Below are positions 11,165 through 12,123 of a stretch of 12,728 nucleotides of DNA, in pieces. Source of the DNA: a virus (taxonomy: Duplodnaviria; Heunggongvirae; Uroviricota; Caudoviricetes); IMG/VR virus record IMGVR_UViG_2585427793_000006, positions 1-12,728 of that record; one strand, 5' to 3'. Within the stretch, counting starts at the first letter, position 1, and each line of letters begins with the position of its first letter. The position numbers were made by a program, and so were the translations under genes. Under the pieces are notes generated by a model that had not been told where the DNA came from, did no database searches, and saw nothing but the letters and a program-made list of their open reading frames with translations.

Positions 11165-12123
11165 TGGATTCGTTACAGGATGATTATACAAAGCTGCTGT
11201 ACGGACTGATGCCGCCGGGGCCTGCATGGAGCGATACCGACGGCGTGCTTGATGGTCTGGCACCATCGCTTGTACGTGTTCATCAGCGGACTGATGAACT
11301 GATGGCTGAAATCGATCCTGGTCAGTCAACAGAGCTGATTGAACGTTATGAAGAATTGTATGGTTTACCTGACACCTGCTCTCCTGTTGGAGCCCAGACA
11401 TTACGCCAGCGTCAGCAACGGCTGGAAGCAAAAGCCAATGTGGCTGGTGGCATAAATGAGCAGTTCTTCCTGGAGCAGCTTGAGGCGCTGGGATATACCG
11501 GCGTGACGATCGAACAGTTCCAGCACCTGGATGCAAGCCCCGATCCGGAATGGGGTGATCGCTGGCGTTATTTCTGGCGTGTGACGTTGCCGGTGGATGC
11601 CGGTGCTCAGTGGCAGACATGTTCGGACACCTGTAACACACCGATCCGGACGTGGGGTGATACGGTTGCGGAATGCGTGATTAATAAATTATGTCCGTCG
11701 CATACTGTTGTCCTTTTTGCATATCCGGATGAGTCTGGTGAAGGGCAACAAGCCGCCCTGACTATAAACAGCCTCTCCTTTCAGGCCGGACACAAGACGA
11801 CTGAGCCATTAGCGATTAATCATACAGGTGTTCATTTTGCGGTTGTTCCGGCACTGACAGGTAAGCCGCTGACAATTAACCGGATTAACTTTTATGCCGC
11901 CCGTCCGATGGCAGAACCACTGGTACTCAGCAGGGCGCAATTGCACTCAGGTCTGCCGACAACGGACCCCATGACCATGAACAGCGCACAGTTGCAGACG
12001 GGATACAGGACCCGCTCCCCCGTACCGGTTAACAGTATGCAGTTGCAGACAGCCAGCAGAACCCGTGAACCGTTATTGATTAATCACCCGGGACTGCATT
12101 TTGCTGTGGTCACGTCCGAATGA
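11164..12123 (+). CDS. Tail protein of the Mu gp48 / P2 gpI / YmfQ (DUF2313) type with an unusual repeat-containing C-terminal extension of about 125 aa
   Basis: The N-terminal ~190 aa (...LLYGLMPPGPAWS...) fit the DUF2313 family. The C-terminus has degenerate repeats (EPLAINHTGVHFAVV, KPLTINRINFY, EPLVLSRAQLHSG, MNSAQLQTG, VNSMQLQTA, EPLLINHPGLHFAVV). Confidence 0.75.
   Translation: MDSLQDDYTKLLYGLMPPGPAWSDTDGVLDGLAPSLVRVHQRTDELMAEIDPGQSTELIERYEELYGLPDTCSPVGAQTLRQRQQRLEAKANVAGGINEQFFLEQLEALGYTGVTIEQFQHLDASPDPEWGDRWRYFWRVTLPVDAGAQWQTCSDTCNTPIRTWGDTVAECVINKLCPSHTVVLFAYPDESGEGQQAALTINSLSFQAGHKTTEPLAINHTGVHFAVVPALTGKPLTINRINFYAARPMAEPLVLSRAQLHSGLPTTDPMTMNSAQLQTGYRTRSPVPVNSMQLQTASRTREPLLINHPGLHFAVVTSE

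What the first reader, a model, noticed from the sequence alone, without database searches (positions are those of the whole stretch)
11730..12123. gp48/DUF2313-like baseplate protein with a repeat-rich C-terminal extension
The N-terminal ~190 aa resemble the Mu gp48 / P2 gpI / YmfQ family, which is normally about 190-200 aa. This ORF continues for ~125 more residues made of degenerate ~17-20 aa repeats (EPLAINHTGVHFAVV... KPLTINRINFY... EPLVLSRAQLHSG... MNSAQLQTG... VNSMQLQTA... EPLLINHPGLHFAVV). The repeats are conserved at protein level but diverged at DNA level, suggesting a functional module, for example a fibre-docking or collar domain or a fused fibre N-terminus.
Basis: seen in the sequence. 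Interest (0 to 1): 0.45.

Follow-up and report, generated by a model that had tools for sequence, protein, structure and literature searches.

The report
Repeat tether on a baseplate protein
A prophage baseplate protein (gp48/YmfQ) carries an undescribed C-terminal module of 17-residue repeats that is always encoded next to one lectin-like tail protein, so it is most likely the attachment point that hangs an extra sugar-binding host-recognition protein on the virus tail.

Summary
ORF 11164-12123 (319 aa) has a Mu gp48/YmfQ domain (aa 13-187) followed by about 130 extra residues. These hold seven repeats of 17-20 aa with the consensus P-L-x-[IV]-N-R-x-x-[LF]-Q-[ST]-[GA]. It is not a frameshift artefact. 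The ORF is intact in 35 complete E. coli genomes, evolves under purifying selection (dN/dS 0.26-0.37), and varies by whole in-frame repeats.

The extension matches no Pfam, NCBIfam, PHROG or PDB entry, and is absent from 50,697 phage records. It is not a fibre N-terminus. The same module ends nine different anchor proteins in three classes: Mu-like gp48, lambda Stf N-terminal parts, and a P2 gpH N-terminal part.

In nearly every case a ~350-aa gene (phrog_8291, usually TTG start) follows 20-30 nt downstream. The exceptions are two redundant loci where it lies 1.4 kb away, and one weak case. The AlphaFold model of that protein (pLDDT 90) is a two-domain ConA-like lectin jelly roll that resembles virion tail proteins.

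Compared with phage phiP27, the module plus lectin gene is a clean 1.48-kb insertion between gp48 and the fibre gene.

Best reading, inferred and not shown: the module is a portable tether or docking site for an auxiliary lectin-type receptor-binding protein. I rate it a new variant of a known kind, of moderate interest.

The parts
10082..11164 (+). Baseplate J / gp47-like wedge protein gene (360 aa), immediately upstream. Its stop overlaps the gp48 start.
   Evidence: Pfam PF04865 Baseplate_J, E 1.4e-52. The region is 95% identical in DNA to phiP27.
11164..11733 (+). gp48/YmfQ core domain (aa 1-190) of the 319-aa ORF. This is the conventional wedge subunit that docks the tail fibre in Mu.
   Evidence: PF10076, aa 13-187, E 1.7e-24. 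phrog_203, E 7e-73. It is 91.8% identical in protein to phiP27 L53, and DNA homology to phiP27 stops at 11733. Role in Mu: PMC11915804.
11734..11754 (+). Short acidic, Gly/Gln-rich linker (SGEGQQA) at the recombination junction. It replaces phiP27's terminal DEDAQD.
   Evidence: Junction comparison. Other gp48 fusions have longer acidic linkers before the module (L045, P0020).
11755..11865 (+). Sub-module A: repeat 1 (ALTINSLSFQAGHKTTE) plus cap-type repeat 2 (PLAINHTGVHFAVVPALTGK).
   Evidence: The same '1 repeat + cap + PALTG/PVLKG' unit is found in two other, unrelated gp48 types (L025/L033 and L016).
11866..12120 (+). Canonical module: four 17-aa repeats plus the terminal cap repeat PLLINHPGLHFAVVTSE, 85 aa in all. 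This is the part shared with Stf-like and gpH-like anchors.
   Evidence: HMMER hits over 1.84e9 representative proteins align to query residues ~43-130 and always to the extreme C-terminus of the target. Alignment A1. Repeat logo. dN/dS 0.23-0.37.
12121..12123 (+). TGA stop codon of the gp48 fusion.
12134..12139 (+). Shine-Dalgarno sequence AAGGAG for the downstream gene, 7 nt before its TTG start.
   Evidence: Sequence. Conserved SD plus TTG arrangement in homologous loci. The downstream frame is open only from 12129, so initiation is independent.
12147..12728 (+). First 194 codons of the ~349-aa lectin-like partner gene (phrog_8291), which runs off the window end. It is the inferred cargo of the module.
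   Evidence: phrog_8291, E 4e-135. The full gene is in B7A (L002 9984-11033). AF2 model pLDDT 90.2, ConA-like jelly-roll fold.

Best explanation
The extension is a portable C-terminal tether or docking module. A short acidic linker is followed by a beta-rich array of 17-residue repeats that ends in a conserved hydrophobic cap strand (h-x-F-A-V-V). The module fixes the separately translated ~350-aa lectin-like protein, encoded directly downstream, to the virion.

In this prophage the module is fused in frame to the wedge protein gp48, which is present once per wedge and six times per baseplate. Each wedge would therefore carry an auxiliary carbohydrate-binding receptor-binding protein. The ordinary fibre, which docks on the unchanged gp48 core, would be retained alongside it.

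Shown here: the module is real, translated and selected. It always ends its host protein. It is genetically coupled to the lectin-like gene across three classes of anchor. The partner has a lectin-type fold like virion tail proteins. The pair arrived as one insertion relative to phiP27.

Inferred: physical binding of partner to module, the module's fold, the stoichiometry, and glycan binding. I favour a single-chain beta-solenoid or hairpin stack with an Asn ladder, because gp48 is monomeric in the wedge.
For: 1. Module to partner. Every real HMMER hit of the module whose context could be read (P0020, P0021, P0022; P0024 via L009) has a phrog_8291 homologue starting 22-30 nt after its stop.
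2. Partner to module. Of 28 loci found through the partner that have upstream DNA, 25 have a module-ending ORF 22-30 nt upstream. L016 and L017 have a module-bearing gp48 1.4 kb upstream, with fibre and Tfa in between. L037 and L039 have a free 64-aa ORF with a degenerate two-repeat motif. Distant partners (40-54% identity) keep the pairing (L041, L043, L045).
3. Nine anchor variants in three classes carry the module: five gp48 types (some only 25-27% identical to each other), three lambda Stf N-terminal types (PF08400 plus PF03406), and one P2 gpH N-terminal type (PF12571). The module is always at the extreme C-terminus.
4. In lambdoid contexts the lectin gene takes the place of the usual distal Stf tip, and no Tfa gene follows it (L008/L038, L039, L043).
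5. Purifying selection. Window versus L025: 108 codons, dN/dS 0.37, Fisher p 3.8e-4. L033 versus L025: 0.26. Window versus L007 module: 0.23. Indels are whole repeats in frame, and repeat number ranges from 3 to 7.
7. Relative to phiP27, module plus lectin gene form a clean 1483-nt insertion between gp48 codon ~190 and the fibre gene (L001 4570/4568).
8. gp48 is the fibre-docking wedge subunit at the baseplate periphery in Mu, one copy per wedge (PMC11915804).
Against: No direct evidence of binding was obtained.

Module and partner do not co-vary tightly. Partners 98% identical sit behind modules only 36% identical (window versus L007).

The partner is evenly conserved along its length rather than having a hypervariable tip, which is unusual for a specificity-determining receptor-binding protein.

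The partner and module are absent from all 50,697 sequenced phage records. They are so far known only from prophages, and some copies (B7A) have frameshifted baseplate genes. PGAP calls the gene a C-terminally incomplete pseudogene in B7A.

The L043 module lacks the FAV cap. A module that works both on a monomeric gp48 and on presumably trimeric Stf/gpH stalks needs an oligomer-independent fold, and this is assumed, not shown.
Confidence: 0.55

Rival explanations
1. The repeat array is itself a short fibre or stalk, or an adhesin (a 'whisker', perhaps an adenovirus-like triple beta-spiral or other beta-repeat shaft). The lectin-like gene is only a linked neighbour that travels in the same cassette and attaches elsewhere on the tail.
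For: The period of 17 aa, with conserved Pro, Gly/Ala and alternating hydrophobic residues, is reminiscent of fibre shaft repeats (Ad2 'GPLTVSEGKLALQTS', from my own knowledge). The module follows collar-like and Phage_fiber_2 segments in Stf/gpH-type anchors that are presumably trimeric. Repeat number varies as in shafts. Module and partner do not co-vary tightly.
Against: No match to PF00608 Adeno_shaft or any Pfam family at E<=10 in seven module-bearing proteins. The module profile hits no PDB sequence at E<=10. gp48 is one copy per wedge (PMC11915804), so a homotrimeric shaft cannot form on it. The 20-30 nt adjacency to the lectin gene across nine anchor variants would remain unexplained. 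In lambdoid loci nothing else could provide a receptor-binding tip.
Confidence: 0.17
2. The extension is a recombination scar. Insertion of the lectin cassette fused leftover 3' coding sequence of a donor fibre gene in frame to gp48. The tail is tolerated but has no function on gp48, and the repeats mainly serve as homology for cassette exchange.
For: PGAP treats the B7A gene as a truncated YmfQ pseudogene. There is a clean insertion junction relative to phiP27. Homology breakpoints cluster inside or at the edge of the module, at 11733, 11780, 12132 and 12146. The window protein carries two cap-type repeats, as if two modules had been joined.
Against: dN/dS is 0.26-0.37 in the gp48-fused versions themselves. 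The '[1 repeat + cap] + [3-4 repeats + cap]' architecture is kept in three gp48 types that are only ~27% identical in their core domains (window, L025/L033, L016). Five independent gp48 lineages have in-frame fusions, with only whole-repeat indels. The ORF is intact on 344 contigs.
Confidence: 0.13
3. Chaperone relationship. The ~350-aa protein is an assembly factor that folds or caps the repeat module (or the reverse) and is not a stable, receptor-binding virion component.
For: Strict gene adjacency is also typical of fibre-chaperone pairs such as Stf-Tfa and gp37-gp38/gp57. The partner is evenly conserved without a variable tip. In lambdoid contexts no Tfa gene follows.
Against: A two-domain, 350-aa ConA-like jelly roll is unlike known fibre chaperones. 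Its closest structural relatives are MS-verified virion tail-cluster proteins and carbohydrate-binding or carbohydrate-cleaving domains. A canonical Caudo_TAP chaperone is already present for the fibre in the myovirus loci.
Confidence: 0.1

Closest known systems
Mu gp48 / P2 gpI / e14 YmfQ baseplate wedge subunit (Pfam PF10076; BW3 in the Mu cryo-EM structure, PMC11915804)
   Same: The N-terminal 190 aa are a clear family member. The gene sits after Baseplate_J and before the fibre genes, and the protein is 92% identical to phiP27 L53.
   Different: Family members in the 75 matching phage records align only to query aa <=214, that is to the core domain. This protein adds a 130-aa repeat module not seen in any sequenced phage.
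T2/S16-type long tail fibre gp37 with a separately encoded adhesin gp38 bound to its tip (own knowledge: Dunne et al. 2018)
   Same: The fibre is in two parts. The anchor protein ends in a conserved C-terminal element, and the receptor-binding protein is encoded by the next gene and added non-covalently.
   Different: There is no sequence or fold relationship. The partner is a ConA-like jelly roll, not a polyglycine-sandwich adhesin. Here the anchor can be a baseplate wedge protein rather than a fibre. Binding has not been shown.
Anchor-branch / adaptor systems for multiple receptor-binding proteins (Klebsiella KP32-type phages, CBA120, G7C gp63.1-gp66, SP6/K1-5; own knowledge)
   Same: The logic is modular: a conserved docking element lets an extra receptor-binding protein be plugged onto the virion and exchanged horizontally.
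   Different: Those systems use N-terminal docking peptides or T4 gp10-like domains on tailspikes. Here the element is a C-terminal 17-aa repeat array on the anchor, and the cargo is a lectin-like protein, not a beta-helix depolymerase.
Lambda Stf-Tfa and Mu gp49-gp50 fibre tips
   Same: The same N-terminal anchors (PF08400 phage_tail_N, Phage_fiber_2) precede the module in the lambdoid relatives. The lectin gene occupies the position of the distal tip.
   Different: The usual C-terminal receptor-binding domain and the Caudo_TAP chaperone are replaced by module plus lectin-like protein.
Adenovirus / reovirus triple beta-spiral shaft repeats (PF00608)
   Same: The period is similar (15-20 aa), with P-L-x-V and L-Q-T-like motifs.
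   Different: No HMM or PDB sequence match was found. The conserved Asn at repeat position 6 is not a beta-spiral feature (own knowledge). A trimer is not possible on monomeric gp48.

Membership tests
Phage_Mu_Gp48 / YmfQ (PF10076) | HMM match above the curated gathering score | tested here: met
   86.8 bits against a cut-off of 37.4, aa 13-187.
Phage_Mu_Gp48 / YmfQ (PF10076) | Gene position: directly after the Baseplate_J (gp47) gene in a Mu-like baseplate operon (gp44-45-46-47-48) | tested here: met
   Window ORFs 8082 (gp44-like), 9137 (gp45), 9676, 10082 (Baseplate_J) and 11164.
Phage_Mu_Gp48 / YmfQ (PF10076) | Single-domain protein of ~190-200 aa | tested here: not met
   The protein is 319 aa. 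phiP27 L53 is 196 aa, and phage homologues align only to aa <=214. It is a member with an added domain.
Phage_Mu_Gp48 / YmfQ (PF10076) | Fibre-docking loop that holds the fibre N-terminus (Mu gp48 residues 133-155) | not tested
   Known from PMC11915804. No alignment to Mu gp48 was made. The core is 92% identical to phiP27 L53, whose fibre orthologue is retained.
Tail-fibre N-terminal domain (the 'fused fibre N-terminus' idea) | Sequence similarity to the N-terminus of the cognate fibre (phiP27 L54 / 369-aa fibre) or to PF12571 / PF08400 | tested here: not met
   No BLASTP hit below E 2.5, and no Pfam hit at E<=1 for the extension or E<=10 for the canonical module. The fibre gene is intact downstream.
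Adenovirus-type triple beta-spiral shaft (PF00608) | HMM or sequence match to shaft repeats | tested here: not met
   No PF00608 hit at E<=10 in seven module proteins. The module profile has 0 PDB hits at E<=10.
Adenovirus-type triple beta-spiral shaft (PF00608) | Obligate homotrimer | not testable with these tools
   Only monomer AF2 is available. gp48 is one copy per wedge in Mu, which argues against it for the gp48 fusions.
Two-part fibre with a separately encoded tip adhesin (T2/S16 gp37-gp38 type) | Adhesin gene immediately downstream of the gene whose product ends in the docking element | tested here: met
   The gap is 22-30 nt in 25 of 28 loci, and also in L003, L007, L008, L043 and L045.
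Two-part fibre with a separately encoded tip adhesin (T2/S16 gp37-gp38 type) | Homology of the partner to gp38 | tested here: not met
   The partner has no Pfam, NCBIfam or PDB sequence hit. Its fold is a ConA-like jelly roll.
Two-part fibre with a separately encoded tip adhesin (T2/S16 gp37-gp38 type) | Physical binding of the partner to the C-terminal element | not testable with these tools
phrog_8291 (partner protein) | HMM match | tested here: met
   E 4e-135 over profile positions 1-194 of 349 for the window fragment.
Concanavalin A-like lectin/glucanase fold (partner protein) | Structural similarity of a confident model to lectin / CBM / PL7 / GH16 jelly rolls | tested here: met

The most novel reading that the evidence does not exclude
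The 17-residue repeat array is a previously undescribed, self-contained 'socket' domain, possibly a single-chain beta-solenoid with an Asn ladder and a C-terminal cap. It would let one lectin-type receptor-binding protein be plugged, without a fibre shaft or a Tfa chaperone, onto three different tail architectures: directly onto a myovirus wedge protein, onto P2-type fibre stubs, and onto lambda side-fibre stubs. Repeat number (3-7, and the double-cap form on gp48) would tune reach or copy number.
Probability: 0.3. Interest if true: 0.6.

Novelty: new variant of a known kind. Interest (0 to 1): 0.5.

Why it matters
Host range in tailed phages is set by receptor-binding proteins and by how they are mounted on the tail.

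If the reading is right, this is a compact, transferable mounting system of about 85 aa plus one gene. It works on both contractile and non-contractile tails. It shows that the wedge protein gp48 can carry a second adhesin besides the fibre.

Three consequences would follow. It would explain a recurrent 'hypothetical protein' pair in prophages of enterotoxigenic E. coli. It would correct pseudogene calls for these YmfQ genes. It would offer a small handle for engineering phage or tailocin specificity.

If it is wrong, the finding is still a conserved, unannotated domain family worth a Pfam entry.

Tried and rejected
1. Word-indexed homology search with the 130-aa extension and with the module alignment found only fragments of the same E. 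coli protein. The exhaustive HMMER search was needed. One of its hits, P0023 (an 865-aa acidic repeat protein), was judged spurious.
2. The search for related loci with the module alignment failed because no stretch was conserved enough. I searched through the partner protein instead.
3. Single-sequence AF2 of the whole 319-aa protein gave pLDDT 34 and was unusable.
The last structure job therefore went to the partner alone.
5. Pfam (E<=1 for the whole extension, E<=10 for the canonical module), PHROGs (E<=1; best 0.035), NCBIfam (E<=0.1, on the whole 319-aa protein) and PDB sequence (E<=10) gave no significant hit.
6. tblastn of module and partner against the phage records, and of the extension against plasmids, gave no match.
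7. A frameshift or read-through fusion of gp48 to the downstream ORF was rejected. There is a stop codon, the downstream frame is open only from 12129, and the gene has its own SD plus TTG.
8. The fused-fibre-N-terminus idea was rejected.
9. The genomic context of P0018 could not be retrieved.
10. Literature searches by accession number and by keywords found no description of the module or its partner.

Full report
**Setting**

The window is the tail and baseplate module of a phiP27/ST64B/SfV-like, Mu-type myovirus prophage of E. coli. In order it encodes:
- DUF2635 and the tail sheath
- the tail tube
- the tape measure protein
- a DNA-circularisation protein
- a gp44-like hub and gp45
- a 137-aa ORF in the gp46 position
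- Baseplate_J (gp47)
- the ORF in question

DNA is 95% identical to phage phiP27 from 7164 to 11733, and the identity then stops. The region 11164-12728 is >=99% identical in 35 of 5426 complete E. coli genomes, many of which I recognise as enterotoxigenic (ETEC) strains (B7A, ETEC6, TD225-C4, ATCC 43886).

**Observation**

ORF 11164-12123 encodes 319 aa.
- Residues 13-187 match Pfam PF10076 Phage_Mu_Gp48 (E 1.7e-24).
- The phiP27 orthologue L53 is 196 aa and ends ...YPDEDEDAQD. The window protein reads ...YPDESGEGQQAALTINS... and continues for about 125 more residues.
- The extension resolves into seven repeats of 17, 20, 17, 17, 17, 17 and 17 aa.
- Self-similarity beats all 500 residue shuffles.
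- At the DNA level no tandem repeat is found. Only repeats 2 and 7 are recognisably related (73% over 45 nt).

**Not an artefact, and translated**

- The exact 319-aa protein occurs on 344 contigs.
- Diverged copies of the extension give dN/dS of 0.37 (window versus L025: 108 codons, 28 synonymous and 39 non-synonymous differences, Fisher p 3.8e-4), 0.26 (L033 versus L025) and 0.23 (window module versus L007 module).
- Length differences between alleles are whole repeats in frame. L025 lacks one 17-aa unit, and P0020-type proteins have four or five repeats.
- PGAP nevertheless annotates the B7A copy as a C-terminally incomplete YmfQ pseudogene. The frame in that genome is intact.

**What the extension is related to**

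Nothing is found in Pfam, PHROGs, NCBIfam or PDB sequences. Sequenced phages and plasmids also have no match.

An exhaustive HMMER scan of 1.84 billion representative proteins found five credible full-length relatives, besides two fragments of the same E. coli protein and one hit judged spurious. In each relative the match is to the last ~85 residues of the target. These 85 residues form a 'canonical module' of four 17-aa repeats plus a distinct final cap repeat, for example ...EPLLINHAGVHFAVVSAF (alignment A1).

The relatives are of three kinds:
- another, very different gp48 (P0020)
- lambda-Stf-like proteins with phage_tail_N and Phage_fiber_2 domains (P0021, P0022), plus P0018, which shows only Phage_fiber_2 repeats and whose context could not be read
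- a P2 gpH-like N-terminal domain (P0024)

Pooling 41 distinct repeats gives the logo P2 (90%), L3 (83%), x, I/V5 (93%), N6 (85%), R7, x, x, L/F10 (85%), Q11 (68%), S/T12, G/A13 (95%).

The window protein consists of a partial unit (one repeat plus a cap-type repeat, then PALTGK) followed by a complete canonical module. That same double arrangement recurs on two other gp48 types whose core domains are only ~27% identical to the window's (L025/L033 and L016). It is therefore unlikely to be an accident of one recombination event.

**The coupling that gives the function away**

In every context I could read, a homologue of one ~350-aa protein starts 22-30 nt after the module's stop codon. This protein is phrog_8291, with no Pfam match. 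It usually has a TTG start behind a good Shine-Dalgarno sequence.

The reverse test used loci collected through the 350-aa protein in IMG/VR and GTDB.
- Of 28 loci with upstream DNA, 25 have a module-ending ORF directly upstream.
- In L016 and L017 a module-bearing gp48 lies 1.4 kb upstream, separated by a fibre gene and a Tfa gene.
- In L037 and L039 there is a free-standing 64-aa ORF with a degenerate two-repeat motif. This is a weak case.
- Partners as distant as 43-54% identity keep the pairing. L043 has lambda J, Lom, and Stf plus four repeats. L045 has a 259-aa gp48 with an acidic linker and three repeats. L041 (Raoultella) has an uncalled Stf plus module.

Many of these loci are near-identical copies, so the meaningful count is by anchor type. 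There are nine anchor variants in three structural classes.

Three further points bear on the function.
- In the lambdoid loci the lectin gene stands where the distal Stf tip would be, and no Tfa gene follows it.
- Relative to phiP27, 'linker + module + partner gene' is a clean 1483-nt insertion between gp48 codon ~190 and the start of the fibre gene. The left junction is at L001 4570 and the right junction at L001 4568.
- The fibre itself (369 aa in B7A) remains about 90% identical to phiP27 L54 in its N-terminal half.

**The partner**

With a 26-sequence alignment (A4), AlphaFold2 gives a confident all-beta, two-domain model (pLDDT 90.2, pTM 0.89).
- Foldseek against viral models finds ~350-aa proteins of siphophages, led by an Achromobacter phage AchV4 'virion structural protein' (E 4e-15, TM 0.66). 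Tail-cluster proteins of 35-37 kDa from that phage were detected in virions by LC-MS/MS (PMC7996906).

The partner is thus most plausibly a virion-borne carbohydrate-recognising protein. It is evenly conserved along its length. It occurs in 64 of 5426 complete E. coli genomes, in up to five copies per genome, and in no sequenced phage record.

**Mechanism proposed**

In Mu, gp48 is the peripheral wedge subunit, one per wedge, whose loop 133-155 holds the fibre N-terminus (PMC11915804).

I infer the following.
- The gp48 core of this prophage still docks the ordinary fibre.
- The acidic linker and the repeat module project from each wedge and hold the lectin-like protein. This gives the baseplate a second, sugar-binding adhesin.
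- On lambda-type and P2-type stubs the same module mounts the same protein as the fibre tip.
- Because the module must work on a monomeric anchor, I favour an oligomer-independent fold. This could be a hairpin stack or small beta-solenoid, with the invariant Asn as a ladder and the last repeat as a cap.

This is inference from the sequence pattern alone. The low-confidence single-sequence model predicts hairpins only for the two cap repeats.

**Weak points**

- Binding has not been shown.
- Module and partner do not co-vary tightly.
- The L043 module lacks the cap.
- Everything known so far comes from prophages, some of them decayed.

**Rivals**

The rivals are set out with their evidence in the structured fields: the array as a shaft or whisker in its own right, a tolerated recombination scar, and a chaperone relationship. 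The scar idea is weakened most, by the selection data and by the five independent gp48 fusions.

**Comparison with known systems, and novelty**

- As a protein, this is a bona fide gp48/YmfQ family member with an added domain.
- As a system, it works like two-part fibres with a separately encoded tip adhesin (T2/S16 gp37-gp38), or like anchor-branch receptor-binding-protein adaptors. It shares no sequence or fold with either. Unlike them, it places the docking element at the C-terminus of a baseplate wedge protein.
- I found no description of the module or its partner in the searchable literature.

I rate it a new variant of a known kind, with interest about 0.5.

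Noticed in passing
window 48-2035: A Caudo_TAP tail-fibre assembly gene (48-593), a truncated 156-aa phage_tail_N (Stf N-terminal) ORF (580-1050) and a Mom DNA-modification gene (1286-2035) lie directly upstream of DUF2635 and the sheath gene. These are typical right-end genes of a Mu-like genome. B7A has a tail-terminator gene in that position instead. The same 1.5 kb lies downstream of the fibre cassette in L025 (97% identity). This suggests a rearranged or tandem prophage junction.
   Followed up: partly
L002 (E. coli B7A, NZ_CP035812) 9001-9585: PGAP annotates the gp48 fusion as a pseudogene ('YmfQ family protein, incomplete, missing C-terminus') although the 319-codon frame is intact. 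Other genomes list the same protein as a normal 319-aa YmfQ/DUF2313 protein. This is probably an annotation artefact caused by the unrecognised extension.
   Followed up: partly
window 12147; L002-L045 partner gene starts: The lectin-like gene starts with TTG behind an SD in all but the most distant homologues, which use ATG (L037/L039 and L045). This conserved weak start codon may set a low stoichiometry relative to the anchor.
   Followed up: partly
L039 3794-3988 and L037 ~4790-4985: A free-standing 64-aa ORF (MFALLLNGKPLDP...HLPLVIKHAVVSVGHENVLPVLTGRTWLTYLIQN) sits between a module-less 257-aa Stf N-terminal protein and a 40%-identical lectin homologue. It may be a detached, degenerate version of the module.
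   Followed up: no
L003 6001-7167 (P0020); L026-L028: The P0020-type gp48 carries an additional ~115-aa middle domain between the core and the module, with weak Big_13 / CarboxypepD_reg Ig-like hits. Its repeats differ between strains in number (four or five) and show homogenised copies.
   Followed up: partly
L009 (E. albertii NBRC 107761) 1858-6059: A P2-like prophage carries a complete gpH-type fibre plus Tfa, followed by a second 285-aa gpH-N-terminal stub ending in the module, and then the lectin gene. This is a two-fibre arrangement on one baseplate.
   Followed up: partly
L002 5880-6960 and 7508-7932: In B7A the baseplate hub (gp44-like) and GP46 genes are annotated as frameshifted, so that copy of the prophage is probably defective. 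The window copy has these ORFs intact.
   Followed up: no
L003 10099-10887 and L008 3112-3891 (reverse strand): An alpha/beta-hydrolase (Ndr/Hydrolase_4) gene lies on the opposite strand just after the fibre and lectin cassette in two unrelated prophage contexts. It may be a moron travelling with the cassette.
   Followed up: no
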